Shown: positions 22,664 through 30,488 of the stretch, in pieces
Position numbering within the stretch: the stretch's first letter is position 1
Layout: each line of letters begins with the position of its first letter
NCBI RefSeq assembly: GCF_013167455.1
Contig: NZ_CP038328.1
From: Escherichia coli O157:H7
GTDB taxonomy: Bacteria; Pseudomonadota; Gammaproteobacteria; Enterobacterales; Enterobacteriaceae
Reading direction: 5' to 3' (one strand)
DNA: 64,000 nt
Made by a program: the position numbers and the translations under genes
Notes under the pieces: generated by a model
Told to the model about the DNA's origin: nothing
The model's input: the letters and a program-made list of their open reading frames with translations, nothing else
Databases searched by the model: none

Positions 22664-24334
22664 ATGGATAATGCAGAACTCGCCATTGGTATCGATCTCG
22701 GTACTACCAATAGTTTAATTGCCGTCTGGAAAGACGGTGCCGCGCAATTAATTCCAAATAAGTTCGGTGAATATTTAACACCATCCATAATTAGCATGGA
22801 TGAAAATAATCATATTTTAGTCGGAAAACCGGCTGTATCACGGCGTACTTCGCATCCGGATAAAACGGCAGCGTTATTTAAACGTGCAATGGGCAGTAAT
22901 ACCAACTGGCGGTTAGGCAGCGACACATTTAACGCGCCAGAACTGTCCTCTTTGGTATTACGCTCATTAAAAGAAGATGCCGAAGAATTTCTGCAACGTC
23001 CGATTAAAGATGTGGTGATCTCTGTTCCGGCTTATTTCAGCGATGAACAACGCAAGCATACCCGTTTAGCAGCGGAGTTAGCCGGTTTAAATGCGGTACG
23101 CTTAATTAATGAACCCACAGCAGCTGCGATGGCGTATGGCCTGCATACCCAACAAAATACCCGTTCGCTGGTGTTTGATCTCGGTGGCGGCACGTTTGAC
23201 GTCACGGTGCTTGAGTACGCCACGCCGGTGATTGAAGTTCACGCCTCCGCTGGCGACAACTTCCTCGGTGGCGAAGATTTTACCCATATGCTGGTCGATG
23301 AGGTTTTAAAACGCGCGGATGTCGCCAGGACCACGCTTAACGAGAGTGAACTGGCAGCCTTGTATGCCTGTGTGGAAGCGGCAAAATGTAGCAATCAATC
23401 GCCAATACACATTCGCTGGCAGTACCAGGATGAAACGCGGGAATGCGAATTTTACGAGAACGAACTGGAAGATTTGTGGTTGCCGCTGCTCAATCGCTTG
23501 CGAGTGCCGATTGAACAGGCGTTGCGCGATGCGCGTCTGAAGCCGAGTCAAATCGACAGTCTGGTGCTGGTTGGCGGCGCGTCACAAATGCCGCTGGTGC
23601 AGCGAATCGCCGTGCGTCTGTTTGGCAAATTACCGTATCAAAGTTACGATCCGAGCACCATTGTCGCGCTGGGCGCAGCAATCCAGGCAGCCTGCCGCTT
23701 ACGCAGTGAAGATATTGAAGAAGTGATCCTCACTGATATTTGCCCTTACTCGTTGGGCGTTGAGGTTAACCGCCAGGGCGTTTCCGGCATTTTCTCGCCG
23801 ATTATTGAACGAAACACCACTGTGCCCGTGTCGCGTGTAGAAACTTATTCAACCATGCACCCGGAACAGGATTCTATTACGGTTAACGTCTATCAGGGAG
23901 AAAACCACAAAGTTAAAAACAACATTCTGGTGGAATCCTTCGATGTGCCGTTGAAGAGAACCGGGGCTTATCAGTCGATTGATATTCGCTTTAGTTATGA
24001 TATCAACGGTTTGCTTGAAGTTGACGTGCTTCTGGAAGACGGCAGCGTTAAGTCCAGAGTGATTAACCACAGCCCGGTAACATTGAGCGCGCAGCAGATT
24101 GAAGAGAGTCGGACGCGGTTATCCGCATTGAAAATTTATCCGCGCGATATGCTCATCAACCGCACCTTTAAGGCCAAACTGGAAGAGTTGTGGGCGCGGG
24201 CGCTGGGTGACGAGCGAGAAGAGATTGGCCGGGTGATCACCGATTTTGATGCGGCGCTGCAGTCAAACGATATGGCCCGCGTCGATGAGGTCAGGCGGCA
24301 GGCGAGCGTTTATTTAGCCATTGAGATCCCATAA
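22664..24334 (+). CDS. hscC: Hsp70-family chaperone HscC (Hsc62)
   Basis: 556-aa ORF with actin-like ATPase motifs (IDLGTTNS, DLGGGTFD); AT-rich 5' region with rare codons. Confidence 0.95.
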   Translation: MDNAELAIGIDLGTTNSLIAVWKDGAAQLIPNKFGEYLTPSIISMDENNHILVGKPAVSRRTSHPDKTAALFKRAMGSNTNWRLGSDTFNAPELSSLVLRSLKEDAEEFLQRPIKDVVISVPAYFSDEQRKHTRLAAELAGLNAVRLINEPTAAAMAYGLHTQQNTRSLVFDLGGGTFDVTVLEYATPVIEVHASAGDNFLGGEDFTHMLVDEVLKRADVARTTLNESELAALYACVEAAKCSNQSPIHIRWQYQDETRECEFYENELEDLWLPLLNRLRVPIEQALRDARLKPSQIDSLVLVGGASQMPLVQRIAVRLFGKLPYQSYDPSTIVALGAAIQAACRLRSEDIEEVILTDICPYSLGVEVNRQGVSGIFSPIIERNTTVPVSRVETYSTMHPEQDSITVNVYQGENHKVKNNILVESFDVPLKRTGAYQSIDIRFSYDINGLLEVDVLLEDGSVKSRVINHSPVTLSAQQIEESRTRLSALKIYPRDMLINRTFKAKLEELWARALGDEREEIGRVITDFDAALQSNDMARVDEVRRQASVYLAIEIP

Positions 24335-24342
24335 TCACGGCT

Positions 24343-24371
24343 GCCGGATGCGGCGTAAATGCTGCATCCGG
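24343..24371. repeat. REP-like palindrome between convergent hscC and djlC
   Basis: gccggatgcggcgtaaatgctgcatccggc, a possible bidirectional terminator. Confidence 0.5.
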
Positions 24372-24393
24372 CATCGGCGCAAAAAACACATCG

Positions 24394-27214: not shown

Positions 27215-28642
27215 TCACCCGAACAGATGGAGTATTTTCCCTATCAAACCAGCAAAGATAAAAATATAGAAAATAATTTTAATGATGCCCAGACAGCCTG
27301 GCCCACCATCGTCAACGGGCATTGGCTGCGGTTGCGGCTCCGGTTCAACAGTTTGCTTCTCGGTAAAATTCGCCGCCTGAATTAATAATCGACGAATAAT
27401 TAATGCTTCCAGTGGACAACGATTTTCTGCATCAAGACGGCTTACGATCGGCATTAATGATTCTTCTGTAGGTTGGCTGGCCTGCACTAATTGTTTGGCA
27501 ACTAGATATAATGGCCATAAGGTATGTTCTGTATCACGCGTGAGTGAGATCCGCGGCTTACATCCTTTGTGCAAAACCATCTCGACCAGTGAACGCCCCA
27601 GAGCAGAGAGTTTTTCATCGCTGAGTATTTCGTATAAATGAAAACGCGTACGGGCGCTGTCGCCGGGGACATAAAGTAGCGGTTTTCCCTGGTCGTTAAC
27701 CAGTTCACGAGCTTCAATCATCATCACCACTAATGGGTAATAATCGACTCGATGCTGACGGCACCATTGCAACATTAAAGCATCCGCCTGAGTGGAGGGA
27801 TACTCGTGCCAGTAGTCACAAAGTTCTGCCAGCAGGCTTTCGCCTTCTCCACAATAGACGCGTTGCGCGTATTCATAATAACGCGCATCTTCATTATCAG
27901 GTTCAGCTTCCCGCCACGACCGGGCGTAATCCAGGAGTTCGGGGATTCCCAGGCGACCTGCACTATACCAGCGGAGTAAATTTCTGTGCAGTTTTGCATC
28001 ATCGGGGATAATCACTGCGCGATGTTGCGCTAAATACAATGTCAGCCATTCTGGATGCGATGACCAAATCCGGGCGAACATTTGGTAAAAATCGATGGTG
28101 TCATTTTGCACGGCAACGGGCAGATGCAGAATGATCTGGAAGTTAAAAACATTTCCCTTCGCAATGGCATATAAAAAGGATTCCAGTTCTTCTTCGTCTA
28201 TTTCCCCGACGTTTTCCTCCTGCAACCACCGCAATCTTTCTGCTAATAACACCACGCACTCGAAGGATAAATGGGCAGTGTTCATGGCTATTGTGCACAG
28301 CGACCAGCGTAATTCATCAATCTCATTCATCGAGCAATAATTTAATTGCTGAATGAATCGCTGCCAGGCGGAGGGCAGAAAACGTTCACTATCAGAGGCA
28401 AGTAACGCACGAAAGGCGAGCAGAATTTCATGTTCTGCTACCTCATATTCTTCTGGTTGCCAAACAGATTTAGCAGGCGACTGCGCAATCCGGAGCGCTT
28501 CCTCATACGCCTGACGAAGTTGTTTAAAACCCTGCGGATCGGTTTCTGGATGAAAGGACGGTAACAGCGCCAGATAAGCGCGGCGGATAATATCGACATC
28601 AGTCGTTTCCTCTATGTTGAGGATCTTCCAGCAATTTTTCAT
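27215..28642 (-). CDS. djlB: J-domain co-chaperone DjlB (YbeS), tail-anchored
   Basis: 475-aa ORF with N-terminal J-like domain, highly similar to djlC, and a C-terminal hydrophobic helix. Confidence 0.9.
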
Positions 28643-29346
28643 AGGTCGCTCATATCCTTAAGCGTTTCCGGGCATGTGGGGTAGTCAGCCAGTGGTTGCC
28701 AGGGTAAGGTCGCGTAATATGCATCGTCACTGGCAAATAATTGATAAAACATATCATTGCCGGAATCGTCGTATTCTTTACGCGCTAAGAATTCACGTAA
28801 TAAAGGCAGATTATCATCTTCGGGAGACTGCCAATATTGCCGACCAAAGGTATAACCGGCAAAGTATTGCCGCCAGTTACTATAATAACGTAGAGCCCGT
28901 AGATGAATACGCGACTGGATCCATAGACTTTCTTCTTCACTCAACCAGTTATTAAGTACGCCCATTCGACTTAAAAAACCCATCCGGACATAATCCCATG
29001 CTTTAATTCCTCCCTCACCACAGCATTCGGCTGTGCTGGCGACAAATTGCGCATAAGCCTGACCTTGCTCATTTAATTCAGCAAGATAGTCACGCCATTC
29101 ACATGGAGAATAACGAAACCAGCGGTGATAAAACCCTGCCAACCGCGCGGCATGACCGTTATCGATCATTCGGTGAATTGTGCGCAGCAGGTCATCACGG
29201 TCATCAATTCCCCAGGAGGAAGAAAGGTCAAAAAAGCGTGTACCTAAATACATTTTGGGTGATGAATGCGAAGGTAAACAGCATTCATTGCGTATTTCCA
29301 TCGGAGTGGAAAGTGCAAACAATATTTTTTGCGACTCCATGTCCAT
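28639..29346 (-). CDS. ybeR: DUF1266-like protein
   Basis: 235-aa ORF; its stop overlaps the djlB start (ATGA); paralog of ybeU. Confidence 0.9.
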
Positions 29347-29510
29347 ATGATTTATCCTTAAATATTCATTGAATGAATATTAGCCGCATTGCGACGCTCG
29401 TTTATTTATACTTTTCTGACGCGACATAATACGCATAAAATAAGGCTTGCGCAAAAAATGAAACACATAAAAATTCAATATATTTTATCTACAATCATAA
29501 GGAAATGATA

Positions 29511-30488
29511 ATGATTTTCACGTCAAGTTGCTGCGATAATTTATCAATAGATGAGATTATCGAACGTGCTGAAAAAGGCGATTGCGAGGCTCAATATATT
29601 GTTGGGTTTTATTATAATCGCGATAGCGCAATTGACTCTCCGGACGACGAAAAGGCCTTTTACTAGCTGAAGCTGGCCGCTGAGCAAGGTCATTGTGAAG
29701 CACAGTATTCCTTAGGGCAAAAGTATACCGAGGATAAAAGCCGTCATAAAGATAATGAGCAAGCCATCTTCTGGCTGAAAAAAGCTGCCCTACAAGGCCA
29801 TACTTTCGCTTCCAACGCCCTTGGCTGGATACTGGATCGTGGAGAAGACCCCAACTATAAAGAAGCGGTTGCCTGGTATCAGATAGCCGCGGAGAGCGGA
29901 ATGTCTTATGCGCAAAATAATCTTGGGTGGATGTACAGAAATGGCAACGGAGCCGCACAAGACTATACGCTGGCATTTTTCTGGTACAAACAAGCTGCAT
30001 TACAAGGCCATAGTGACGCGCAAAACAATCTGGCCGATCTTTATGAAGACGGAAAAGGCGTTGCTCAAAACGAGACACTCGCCGCATTCTGGTATTTGAA
30101 AAGCGCACAGCAGGGTAATCGGCATGCTCAGTTTCAAATTGCATGGGATTATAACGCTGGCGAAGGGGTGGACCAGGACTATAAGCAAGCGATGTACTGG
30201 TATCTGAAGGCTGCCGCTCAGGGGAGCGTCGGCGCTTACGTCAACATCGGTTATATGTATAAACACGGACAAGGCGTTGAGAAAGATTATCAGGCTGCCT
30301 TTGAATGGTTTACGAAAGCCGCTGAATGCAATGACGCCACTGCCTGGTATAACCTGGCCATTATGTATCACTACGGAGAAGGAAGACCTGTCGATCTCCG
30401 ACAGGCTCTCGACCTGTATCGTAAAGTTCAGTCATCCGGAACCAGAGATGTCAGTCAGGAAATTCGTGAGACTGAAGATTTACTGTAG
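29511..30488 (+). pseudogene. ybeQ: Sel1-repeat protein YbeQ interrupted by an in-frame TAG at codon 52
   Basis: ATG at 29511 opens a frame reading ...DDEKAFY*LKLAAEQG...; TAG at 29664-29666 sits where a Sel1 repeat expects Trp (TGG). The frame then runs 274 codons to the TAG stop at 30486-30488 (track ORF 29901..30488 is its 3' part). Confidence 0.7.

What the first reader, a model, noticed from the sequence alone, without database searches (positions are those of the whole stretch)
22664..30488. Hsp70 (hscC) cluster with a duplicated Sel1 / DUF1266 / J-domain unit of incompletely understood function
hscC is followed by two paralogous units. Each has a Sel1-repeat protein (ybeT, ybeQ) divergent from a DUF1266-like protein (ybeU, ybeR) that is translationally coupled by an ATGA overlap to a tail-anchored J-domain protein (djlC, djlB). 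HscC with DjlB/DjlC is described as a third Hsp70 system, but as far as I know the four co-clustered Sel1/DUF1266 genes and the reason for duplication are not functionally explained. The architecture and AT-rich island-like composition resemble accessory stress or conflict (possibly anti-phage or envelope-surveillance) modules. This is the best candidate in the window for an under-described system.
Basis: partly seen in the sequence, partly recalled or inferred. Interest (0 to 1): 0.7.

Follow-up and report, generated by a model that had tools for sequence, protein, structure and literature searches.

The report
HscC Hsp70 cluster with DUF1266 partners
This is the known, dispensable "third Hsp70" gene cluster of E. 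coli; other bacteria show that its uncharacterised DUF1266 genes, but not its Sel1 genes, are a conserved third partner of the chaperone, and in this O157:H7-type strain two of the seven genes are already broken.

Summary
The gene layout is real and at the stated coordinates: hscC, then two djl–DUF1266 pairs joined by 4-nt ATGA overlaps, each beside a divergent Sel1 gene. The window is identical to E. coli 2017C-4109, an O157:H7-type strain.

Across 74 of 74 evaluable genome loci, a YbeU-type DUF1266 gene, an HPE-type membrane J-protein and an HscC-type Hsp70 always occur together. These loci span Pseudomonas, Gilliamella, Erwinia, Pectobacterium, Rahnella, Klebsiella and Limnobaculum. Metagenome contigs and Bacillus mycoides plasmids show the same triad. 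The 4-nt overlap is kept in 76 of 85 junctions.

Sel1 genes occur only in Escherichia, Salmonella and Citrobacter, and ybeT only in Escherichia. The duplication is limited to the same three genera.

DUF1266 gives a confident all-α model with no solved structural relative. I found no defence-system signature and no defence-island context. About 19% of complete E. coli genomes lack the cluster.

Best reading: a membrane-tethered three-part Hsp70 machine in which DUF1266 is the adaptor or dedicated client. The Sel1 genes are late add-ons. The anti-phage idea has no support. This is a new variant of a known kind and of moderate interest.

The parts
22664..24334 (+). hscC, a specialised Hsp70 (556 aa), intact
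   Evidence: ORF. PGAP names it 'molecular chaperone HscC'. NCBIfam DnaK and HscA models match at E 1e-113 to 1e-115 but below their equivalog cut-offs. dN/dS is 0.03 against other Escherichia species.
24394..25845 (-). djlC, an HPE-type tail-anchored J-protein; a pseudogene here (in-frame TAA at 25395-25393, codon 151, GAA to TAA)
   Evidence: Sequence. PGAP flags 'internal stop'. The allele occurs in 308 of 5426 E. coli genomes, and those listed are O157:H7-like.
25842..26549 (-). ybeU, a DUF1266 protein (235 aa), intact; its stop overlaps the djlC start by 4 nt (25842-25845)
   Evidence: Pfam PF06889, E 3.7e-45. AF2 model has pLDDT 94.3 and is all-α. dN/dS is 0.08-0.11.
26550..26650 (.). 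101-bp divergent intergenic region between ybeU and ybeT (presumed promoters)
   Evidence: Coordinates. The consensus promoter scan is no better than shuffles. ybeT and ybeU-djlC are listed as SlyA-induced and H-NS-regulated in PMC5797941.
26651..27205 (+). ybeT, a Sel1-repeat protein (184 aa) with a hydrophobic N-terminal signal or anchor and 3 Sel1 repeats; an Escherichia-only insertion between the two units
   Evidence: Pfam Sel1 x3. It is absent between the units in Salmonella and Citrobacter. dN/dS is 0.07-0.10.
27215..28642 (-). djlB, an HPE-type tail-anchored J-protein (475 aa), intact: J domain 1-55, helical TPR-like body 72-432, TM helix 451-474
   Evidence: Pfam DnaJ, E 7e-4. HPE motif. 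AF2 model has pLDDT 86.5.
28639..29346 (-). ybeR, a DUF1266 protein (235 aa), intact; its stop overlaps the djlB start by 4 nt (28639-28642)
   Evidence: 60% identical to YbeU. dN/dS is 0.05-0.06.
29347..29510 (.). 164-bp divergent intergenic region between ybeR and ybeQ
   Evidence: Promoter-like matches are not above chance.
29511..30488 (+). ybeQ, a cytoplasmic Sel1-repeat protein (325 aa, 8 repeats); a pseudogene here (in-frame TAG at 29664-29666, codon 52, TGG to TAG)
   Evidence: Sequence. PGAP flags 'internal stop'. The allele occurs in 298 of 5426 genomes, O157:H7-like. Orthologues are present in Salmonella (50% identity) and Citrobacter.

Best explanation
The region is the E. coli 'third Hsp70' locus.

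**The working unit.** It is a three-gene module:
- a YbeU/YbeR-type DUF1266 protein;
- a membrane-anchored class C J-protein with an HPE motif (DjlC/DjlB), whose start codon overlaps the DUF1266 stop codon;
- the specialised Hsp70 HscC.

**Proposed mechanism.**
- The J-protein is held at the cytoplasmic face of the inner membrane by its C-terminal helix. This is shown for DjlC in the literature.
- Its J domain switches on the HscC ATPase. This is also shown for DjlC in the literature.
- Its TPR-like helical body carries the co-translated DUF1266 protein. This step is inferred.
- DUF1266 acts as the substrate-selecting subunit, or as the dedicated client, of HscC at the membrane. This step is inferred.

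**Lineage features.** Escherichia, Salmonella and Citrobacter keep two anciently duplicated, co-inherited DUF1266/J pairs that share one HscC. That pattern fits two specificities. The Sel1 genes are later, lineage-specific additions (ybeQ first, then ybeT) and are not core parts.

**Status in E. coli.** The cluster is AT-rich, H-NS-silenced and dispensable. In this O157:H7-type strain djlC and ybeQ are dead, so only HscC + DjlB + YbeR can form a complete module. YbeU is left without its J-protein.
For: **Conserved neighbourhood**
- Of 78 genome loci found through YbeU-like proteins, 76 have a DjlB-like gene immediately downstream and 74 have a convergent HscC-type Hsp70.
- The four without an Hsp70 hit are truncated records.
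- The genera covered are Pseudomonas, Gilliamella, Erwinia, Pectobacterium, Rahnella, Klebsiella, Limnobaculum and Escherichia.
- Independent metagenome contigs show the same triad down to about 22% DUF1266 identity.
- Only these three families are shared between genera. All other neighbours are genus-specific.

**Survives rearrangement and phylum change**
- The order HSP70, then J, then DUF1266, all co-directional, occurs in L089/L090 and on Bacillus mycoides plasmids.

**Translational coupling**
- The spacing between the DUF1266 stop and the J-protein start is -4 in 76 of 85 junctions.

**J-protein family features**
- The HPE motif and C-terminal TM segments are conserved throughout the family.
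- The body is helical and TPR-like.
- TPR-DUF1266 fusions exist elsewhere: 4-7 of 37 multidomain DUF1266 proteins. This points to a TPR/DUF1266 partnership.

**Duplicated pairs co-inherited**
- Proximal and distal copies of both genes group by position across E. coli, Salmonella and Citrobacter.

**Selection**
- All seven genes are under purifying selection between Escherichia species, dN/dS 0.03-0.14.

**Literature**
- DjlC stimulates the HscC ATPase.
- ΔhscC and ΔdjlB ΔdjlC are Cd2+-sensitive (PMC8215388).
- HPE is a tolerated variant of HPD (PMC13254874).
Against: - No physical or genetic interaction data exist for YbeU/YbeR. I could not run a complex prediction.
- Other HscC/J pairs lack DUF1266: the Ralstonia megaplasmid and plasmids of P. 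oryzihabitans, Eleftheria, Rahnella aceris and Duffyella. DUF1266 is therefore not universal to HscC systems.
- DUF1266 also occurs without Hsp70 and in probably extracytoplasmic proteins, fused to SLH, Cu_amine_oxidN1 or LRR_5. Its basic activity is therefore not chaperone-specific.
- The family-wide conserved W, D, R and E residues could mark a ligand or catalytic site rather than an adaptor surface.
- The loci were found through the DUF1266 gene, so the 74/74 figure describes one clade only.
- The cluster is absent from about 19% of E. coli.
- The proteins are below detection in proteomics.
Confidence: 0.6

Rival explanations
1. DUF1266 is the single dedicated client of the chaperone, not an adaptor. 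It would be an enzyme or ligand-binding protein whose assembly, activation or membrane delivery needs HscC and its J-protein. This would parallel IscU, which is the dedicated client of HscA/HscB in the isc operon.
For: - The gene-neighbourhood evidence is the same as for the best explanation.
- Strongly conserved W, D, R and E positions run across the whole DUF1266 family: W117, D118, R121, E139, W158 and G168 in YbeU numbering. They persist in members with no Hsp70 link, which suggests an intrinsic biochemical activity.
- HscC is thought to have few clients and no exchange factor (PMC8215388).
Against: - No fold or sequence relative has a known activity.
- A 1:1 translationally coupled arrangement with the J-protein fits a stable subunit at least as well as a transient client.
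Confidence: 0.25
2. The cluster is an accessory conflict or anti-phage module. The chaperone would sense infection and the membrane J-protein or DUF1266 would act as the effector.
For: - The region is AT-rich and H-NS/SlyA-controlled.
- It is present or absent among E. coli genomes.
- It is plasmid-borne in Erwinia persicina.
- In Bacillus mycoides it is bracketed by IS6 copies near polymorphic-toxin immunity genes.
- Chaperone parts do occur in some defence systems, such as bNACHT25-DnaJ and the CoCoNuT Hsp70-like domains.
Against: - There are no significant PADLOC matches for any component from E. coli, Pseudomonas, Gilliamella, Bacillus or Ralstonia.
- There are no PHROG matches for the DUF1266 or J proteins.
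- No nuclease, NTPase-sensor or other effector domain is present.
- Neighbours are housekeeping or genus-syntenic genes, not defence genes.
- The chromosomal site is fixed within Enterobacteriaceae, with vertical co-inheritance of both pairs.
- Strains without it carry a plain or IS1-mediated deletion, not alternative cargo.
Confidence: 0.06
3. The physiological role is metal-stress proteostasis at the membrane. HscC with its J-proteins would maintain transporters or sensors that deal with Cd2+, Cu or other divalent metals. DUF1266 and the Sel1 proteins would be accessories to that task.
For: - ΔhscC and ΔdjlB ΔdjlC are Cd2+-sensitive, and the review proposes membrane-protein clients (PMC8215388).
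- HscC/J pairs sit next to an Nramp transporter in Ralstonia.
- They sit next to copABCD plus a heavy-metal two-component system in P. oryzihabitans.
- They sit next to a CopD-family gene in Eleftheria.
Against: - Those three contexts belong to the HscC subfamily that lacks DUF1266.
- None of the DUF1266-linked loci showed a conserved metal gene as a neighbour.
- hscC transcript is slightly down, not up, under Cd in E. coli (PMC8651089).
- The sample is small.
Confidence: 0.2
4. In this strain the locus is a decaying remnant of horizontally acquired DNA with no current function. The co-location of the Sel1 genes is incidental.
For: - Two of the seven genes are pseudogenes, fixed in about 300 O157:H7-type genomes.
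- The whole cluster is absent from about 19% of E. coli, and unit 2 from a further 12% or so.
- The cluster is H-NS-silenced and its proteins are undetectable in proteomics.
Against: - The remaining five genes are intact.
- All seven genes show dN/dS of 0.03-0.14 between Escherichia species.
- Both DUF1266/J pairs have been kept since before the Escherichia/Salmonella split.
Confidence: 0.15

Closest known systems
HscC-DjlB/DjlC, the 'third Hsp70 system' of E. coli (Kluck et al. 2002, as summarised in PMC8215388 and PMC13254874)
   Same: It is this very locus. It has a specialised Hsp70, exclusive class C J-proteins with HPE in place of HPD, tail anchoring, and no nucleotide exchange factor.
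   Different: The published system has two components and no known client. Here the DUF1266 gene appears as a conserved, translationally coupled third component. I did not find that association in the searchable literature. One paper notes the cassette in passing (PMC6935094).
HscA-HscB-IscU (the isc operon chaperone system)
   Same: A specialised Hsp70 with one dedicated class C J-protein and one dedicated partner protein, all encoded together. It has a narrow client range and no exchange factor.
   Different: IscU is an Fe-S scaffold of known fold with a defined HscA-binding motif, and the system is soluble. Here the third protein has an orphan fold and unknown activity. The J-protein is membrane-anchored, and its J motif is HPE.
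DnaK-DjlA (membrane-anchored J-protein of E. coli)
   Same: A class C J-protein fixed in the inner membrane that brings an Hsp70 to the membrane.
   Different: DjlA has an N-terminal anchor and a canonical HPD, and it works with DnaK. It has no coupled DUF1266 gene and no dedicated Hsp70.
Defence systems that use chaperone parts (bNACHT25 with DnaJ, PMC12169576; CoCoNuT Hsp70-like CnuD, PMC11090510)
   Same: An Hsp70 or J-domain component inside an accessory gene cluster.
   Different: Those systems contain NACHT, McrBC or HEPN sensor or effector modules and sit in defence islands. This cluster has neither. It also matches no PADLOC model.

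Membership tests
HscC-type Hsp70 system (HscC + DjlB/DjlC) | An Hsp70 of the HscC subfamily with nucleotide-binding and substrate-binding domains | tested here: met
   The 556-aa ORF is 100% identical to RefSeq genes annotated as hscC. DnaK and HscA models match at E about 1e-113 but below their equivalog cut-offs.
HscC-type Hsp70 system (HscC + DjlB/DjlC) | A class C J-protein with an N-terminal J domain carrying HPE | tested here: met
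   DjlB reads ...[11 protein letters not shown]... and DjlC reads ...[10 protein letters not shown].... Pfam DnaJ matches at E 7e-4. HPE is described for DjlB/C in PMC13254874 and PMC10410713.
HscC-type Hsp70 system (HscC + DjlB/DjlC) | A C-terminal tail anchor on the J-protein | tested here: met
   A hydrophobic C-terminal segment is present. The AF2 model has a helix at 451-474 after a disordered linker. Membrane insertion of DjlC is reported in the literature.
HscC-type Hsp70 system (HscC + DjlB/DjlC) | Both J-protein genes intact | tested here: not met
   djlC has an in-frame TAA at codon 151 in this window. djlB is intact.
HscC-type Hsp70 system (HscC + DjlB/DjlC) | The J-protein stimulates the HscC ATPase | not testable with these tools
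   Biochemical evidence for DjlC exists only in the literature (PMC8215388).
DUF1266 (Pfam PF06889) | A significant match to the family profile | tested here: met
   YbeU matches at E 3.7e-45 over residues 41-216. YbeR is 60% identical to YbeU.
Sel1-repeat proteins (Pfam PF08238) | Tandem Sel1 repeats | tested here: met
   YbeT has 3 repeats and YbeQ has 8 at E <= 1e-3.
Catalogued anti-phage defence systems (PADLOC-DB v2) | At least one component matches a defence-protein model | tested here: not met
   No significant matches were found. The only hits were PtuA at E 1e-4 to 2e-3 on a Sel1 stretch and PDC-M44B at E 5e-3, each with 0 stretches passing on their own.
Catalogued anti-phage defence systems (PADLOC-DB v2) | Located in a defence island or on a mobile element, next to other defence genes | tested here: not met
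   Neighbours are gltIJKL, rihA, ybeL and leuS in Enterobacteriaceae. Elsewhere they are genus-syntenic housekeeping or signalling genes. The exception is B. mycoides plasmids, where the module is flanked by IS6.
Catalogued anti-phage defence systems (PADLOC-DB v2) | Protection against phage when expressed | not testable with these tools
   This needs a phage panel.
Horizontally acquired genomic island | Deviant base composition and presence/absence polymorphism | tested here: met
   GC is 0.42-0.48 against 0.50-0.55 in the flanks. hscC is present at >= 80% coverage in 4376 of 5426 E. coli genomes.
Horizontally acquired genomic island | Integrase, tRNA target or flanking direct repeats | tested here: not met
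   No integrase or tRNA is annotated between gltL and leuS. A clean deletion variant joins rihA directly to ybeL. I did not search specifically for direct repeats.

The most novel reading that the evidence does not exclude
YbeU/YbeR-type DUF1266 proteins would be a previously unrecognised third subunit class of Hsp70 machines. They have an orphan fold and are co-translated with an HPE-type membrane J-protein. They would give HscC its specificity, or be its sole client, in bacteria from Proteobacteria to Bacilli. This would be the first concrete handle on the 20-year-old question of what HscC does. In a bolder form, the triad is a chaperone-operated membrane switch that controls an unknown DUF1266 activity.
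Probability: 0.35. Interest if true: 0.65.

Novelty: new variant of a known kind. Interest (0 to 1): 0.45.

Why it matters
HscC is the only one of E. coli's three Hsp70s with no known client or pathway. Showing that a DUF1266 protein is its conserved, translationally coupled partner would turn an open question into direct experiments: pull-downs, complex structure and double-mutant phenotypes. It would also give a first functional context to a large domain family of unknown function with no solved structure, about 1460 clusters at 50% identity.

The result also narrows the problem. The Sel1 genes and the duplication are enterobacterial embellishments, not the core.

The stakes are moderate. 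The cluster is dispensable, silenced in laboratory conditions and partly decayed in this strain.

Tried and rejected
- **Defence libraries.** PADLOC on 13 proteins from six taxa gave nothing significant. PHROGs gave nothing for the DUF1266 or J proteins.
- **Fold assignment of DUF1266.**
  - A PDB sequence profile search gave 0 hits.
  - Foldseek against the PDB gave nothing below E = 1.
  - AFDB50 returned only DUF1266 proteins.
  - No functional lead came from any of these.
- **Solved relatives of DjlB.** Only weak J-domain matches were found.
- **Scan with the broad alignment.** The search for related loci with the 55-sequence alignment failed because no stretch was conserved enough. I repeated it with 20 closer sequences.
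- **Wasted literature search.** A search for 'HscC' alone returned hypopharyngeal carcinoma papers.
- **Irrelevant papers.** The RRS-element preprint uses djlC only as an insertion site. The CoCoNuT Hsp70-like domains are unrelated to HscC. Barriot et al. 2020 (J Mol Biol) is not held, so I could not check whether it mentions DUF1266.
- **Promoter and terminator scan.** Counts did not exceed shuffles, so it is uninformative.
- **My own error.** In some searches I translated ybeQ from 29512 instead of 29511, which put it out of frame. This produced a spurious dN/dS above 1 and an invalid Sel1 query. I redid both, and the conclusions did not change.
- **Rejected idea.** I considered that the N-terminal 'ALSAPM' segment is specific to the HscC-linked clade. 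It is also present in the consensus of unrelated multidomain DUF1266 proteins.

Full report
**1. What is in the window**

The stretch 22000-31200 is 100% identical to the chromosome of E. coli strain 2017C-4109. RefSeq annotates it as rihA, hscC, djlC, ybeU, ybeT, djlB, ybeR, ybeQ, ybeL, leuS.

- The ybeU stop and djlC start share 25842-25845. The ybeR stop and djlB start share 28639-28642. Both are 4-nt ATGA overlaps.
- YbeU and YbeR are 60% identical over their full 235 residues and are DUF1266 proteins (PF06889, E 3.7e-45).
- DjlB and DjlC are 51% identical. They carry an N-terminal J domain with HPE in place of HPD and a hydrophobic C-terminal helix.
- An AlphaFold2 model of DjlB (pLDDT 86.5) shows a J domain at 1-55, a disordered linker, a helical-repeat body at 72-432, a second linker and a terminal helix at 451-474.
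- YbeT has three Sel1 repeats behind a hydrophobic N-terminal segment. YbeQ has eight Sel1 repeats and no such segment.
- GC falls to 0.42-0.48 across 26000-30000, against 0.50-0.55 outside.

**2.

- In this sequence djlC has an in-frame TAA (25395-25393, codon 151). ybeQ, which starts at 29511, has an in-frame TAG (29664-29666, codon 52). RefSeq flags both as pseudogenes.
- Thirty-five-base probes centred on each mutation match 308 and 298 of 5426 complete E. coli genomes. All genomes listed are O157:H7 or O157-like, and Sakai annotates djlC as a pseudogene. These are fixed lineage-specific inactivations.
- Across E. coli the cluster is dispensable:

| Segment | Genomes with >= 80% coverage | Share of 5426 |
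|---|---|---|
| hscC | 4376 | 81% |
| djlC-ybeU | 4268 | 79% |
| djlB-ybeR | 3705 | 68% |
| whole 9.2 kb | 3699 | 68% |

- Example variants are a clean rihA-ybeL junction, an IS1-mediated deletion, and loss of unit 2 only. None carries alternative cargo.
- The genes are not neutral, however. Against three other Escherichia species, dN/dS is 0.03 for hscC and 0.05-0.14 for the six others. Flanking housekeeping genes give 0.00-0.04.

**3. Which parts belong together**

A profile of YbeU-like proteins finds 1460 clusters in the 50%-identity protein library.

*Metagenome contexts.* Contigs for members at 22-40% identity showed the same arrangement every time the contig was long enough. A DUF1266 gene is followed immediately by a large protein with an N-terminal J domain and C-terminal membrane segments, and then by a convergent HSP70 gene.

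*Genome scan.* A scan of one genome per species returned 78 loci.
- 76 have a DjlB-like gene directly downstream and 74 have the HscC-type Hsp70.
- The four without an Hsp70 hit all end less than 2.4 kb after the DUF1266 gene. So 74 of 74 evaluable loci have the triad.
- The genera covered are Pseudomonas, Gilliamella, Erwinia, Pectobacterium, Rahnella, Klebsiella, Limnobaculum and Escherichia.
- Clustering all flanking ORFs shows that these three families are the only ones shared between genera.
- The spacing between the DUF1266 stop and the J-protein start is -4 in 76 of 85 junctions. The translational coupling seen in E. coli is therefore ancient.
- HPE and C-terminal membrane segments are conserved throughout.

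*Rearranged and distant forms.* The triad also occurs as HSP70, then J, then DUF1266, all co-directional. This is seen in one distant genome and on Bacillus mycoides plasmids. There the J-protein again has HPE, a TPR region and a membrane tail. Erwinia persicina carries the triad on plasmids.

**4. What does not belong to the core**

- A tblastn search with correct YbeT and YbeQ sequences (E <= 1e-3) finds Sel1 genes near the triad only in Escherichia, Salmonella and Citrobacter. That is 8 of 99 loci held, including E. coli variants.
- Salmonella and Citrobacter have a ybeQ orthologue (50-60% identity) and two tandem DUF1266/J pairs, but no ybeT between them.
- Klebsiella spallanzanii has one pair and no Sel1 gene at the same chromosomal site.
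- Identity matrices group the hscC-proximal and hscC-distal copies by position, for both the DUF1266 and the J-protein. The pair was therefore duplicated as a unit before these genera split, and both pairs were co-inherited.
- The 'duplicated Sel1/DUF1266/J unit' is really a duplicated DUF1266/J unit. ybeQ was added in the common ancestor of these genera and ybeT later, in Escherichia.

**5. Limits of the association**

- HscC-like Hsp70s at 42-48% identity also occur with a co-directional J-protein but no DUF1266. Examples are the Ralstonia megaplasmid and plasmids of P. oryzihabitans, Eleftheria, Rahnella aceris and Duffyella.
- In three of these the J motif is not HPE: RPD in Ralstonia and P. 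oryzihabitans, DPQ in Eleftheria.
- Conversely, DUF1266 occurs without Hsp70.
- It is also fused to TPR repeats, Cu_amine_oxidN1, SLH, LRR_5 or a peptidase domain.
- DUF1266 is thus a broader domain, and one clade of it is tied to one HscC subfamily.

**6. The DUF1266 fold**

- The YbeU model is confident (pLDDT 94.3, pTM 0.91) and all-α.
- The AlphaFold database returns only DUF1266 proteins.
- Positions W45, H65, W117, D118, R121, R127, E139, W158, G168, W172 and W216 are invariant or nearly so in a 55-sequence alignment.
- A subset of them also holds in unrelated multidomain members.

**7. Mechanism**

*Shown in the literature.*
- DjlC, and not DnaJ, CbpA or HscB, stimulates the HscC ATPase.
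- DjlC inserts into the membrane.
- ΔhscC and ΔdjlB ΔdjlC are Cd2+-sensitive.
- HscC needs no exchange factor.
- The proteins are below detection in exponential cultures (PMC8215388).
- ybeT and ybeU-djlC are induced by SlyA and listed as H-NS-regulated (PMC5797941).
- A DUF1266 gene is strongly de-repressed in hns mutants of strain 042 (PMC7582179).

*Inferred here.* DUF1266 is made together with the J-protein. It most likely binds the J-protein's TPR-like body and forms the specificity-giving subunit, or the dedicated client, of a membrane-tethered HscC machine. The TPR-DUF1266 fusions elsewhere fit such a partnership. The closest analogy is HscA-HscB-IscU. In this strain only HscC-DjlB-YbeR can be complete.

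**8. The conflict hypothesis**

- No component from six taxa matches a PADLOC model significantly.
- No phage protein family matches the DUF1266 or J proteins.
- No effector-type domain is present.
- Neighbours are housekeeping or genus-syntenic genes.
- The only mobile context is the IS6-bracketed copy on B. mycoides plasmids.
- I rate this reading at about 6%.

**9. Novelty**

- The locus and the HscC-DjlB/C pair are known, and HPE is documented.
- The cassette has been noted in passing (PMC6935094).
- I found no paper linking DUF1266 to HscC. 'DUF1266' occurs in a single paper of the library.
- I could not read Barriot et al. 2020.
- The conserved triad is therefore a new variant of a known kind of system. 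It is of moderate interest, and it makes HscC function directly testable.

Noticed in passing
window 25393-25395 and 29664-29666: The djlC (GAA to TAA) and ybeQ (TGG to TAG) nonsense alleles are shared by 308 and 298 of 5426 complete E. coli genomes. All those listed are O157:H7-like. These are fixed lineage-specific pseudogenes, and YbeU is left without its cognate J-protein.
   Followed up: yes
L009 3648-5986 (Escherichia sp. MOD1-EC7003): Between ybeL and ybeQ this cryptic-clade genome has an extra DjlB-like ORF. It is 344 aa with a C-terminal membrane helix and no J domain in frame. A 321-aa protein with a signal peptide follows it. This is a third, partial unit that E. coli lacks.
   Followed up: partly
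L093, L095, L096 (plasmids of Ralstonia, P. oryzihabitans, Eleftheria): HscC/J pairs without DUF1266 have RPD or DPQ in place of HPE/HPD. They lie next to metal genes: Nramp, copABCD plus a heavy-metal two-component system, and CopD. This echoes the Cd2+ phenotype of E. coli ΔhscC.
   Followed up: partly
L094 4774-13288 (Bacillus mycoides plasmid): The HscC, J (HPE, TPR, TM) and DUF1266 triad is bracketed by two IS6 transposase genes on a mobilisable plasmid. Polymorphic-toxin immunity genes (SMI1/KNR4, CDI immunity, PoNi-like) sit nearby. This is evidence that the module moves between phyla.
   Followed up: no
about 30 Pseudomonas loci (e.g. L002 5580-5942), L005 141-536, L093 3118-4155, L101 1-791: Cyclic-di-GMP enzymes recur beside the module. 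They are a 1093-aa EAL protein in Pseudomonas, GGDEF proteins in L005 and Ralstonia, and a diguanylate phosphodiesterase in Duffyella. This may be chance, because such genes are abundant.
   Followed up: no
L089 3846-5999: In the most distant rearranged triad, the J-protein has NPE where the others have HPE, and I saw no obvious membrane tail.
   Followed up: no
L013 (contig labelled Paenibacillus sp. USDA918EY); AFDB A0A2X3M2D5 and A0A077ZGN2: The end of a 'Paenibacillus' contig is 98% identical to E. coli ybeU. A Trichuris 'DnaJ-like' protein is 95% identical to YbeU. Both are probably contamination. A 627-aa E. coli 'Hsc56 co-chaperone' entry looks like a YbeU-DjlC read-through at the ATGA overlap.
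   Followed up: no
L097, L098, L099 (E. coli variants of the locus): There are three kinds of loss. One is a clean deletion that joins rihA to ybeL. One is an IS1-mediated deletion that leaves a ybeQ fragment. One is loss of djlB-ybeR plus the 5' part of ybeQ, with unit 1 left intact.
   Followed up: yes
E. coli database names for ybeU: Several database entries still call YbeU or its fragments 'putative tRNA ligase'. Nothing in the sequence, the Pfam match or the fold supports that name.
   Followed up: partly
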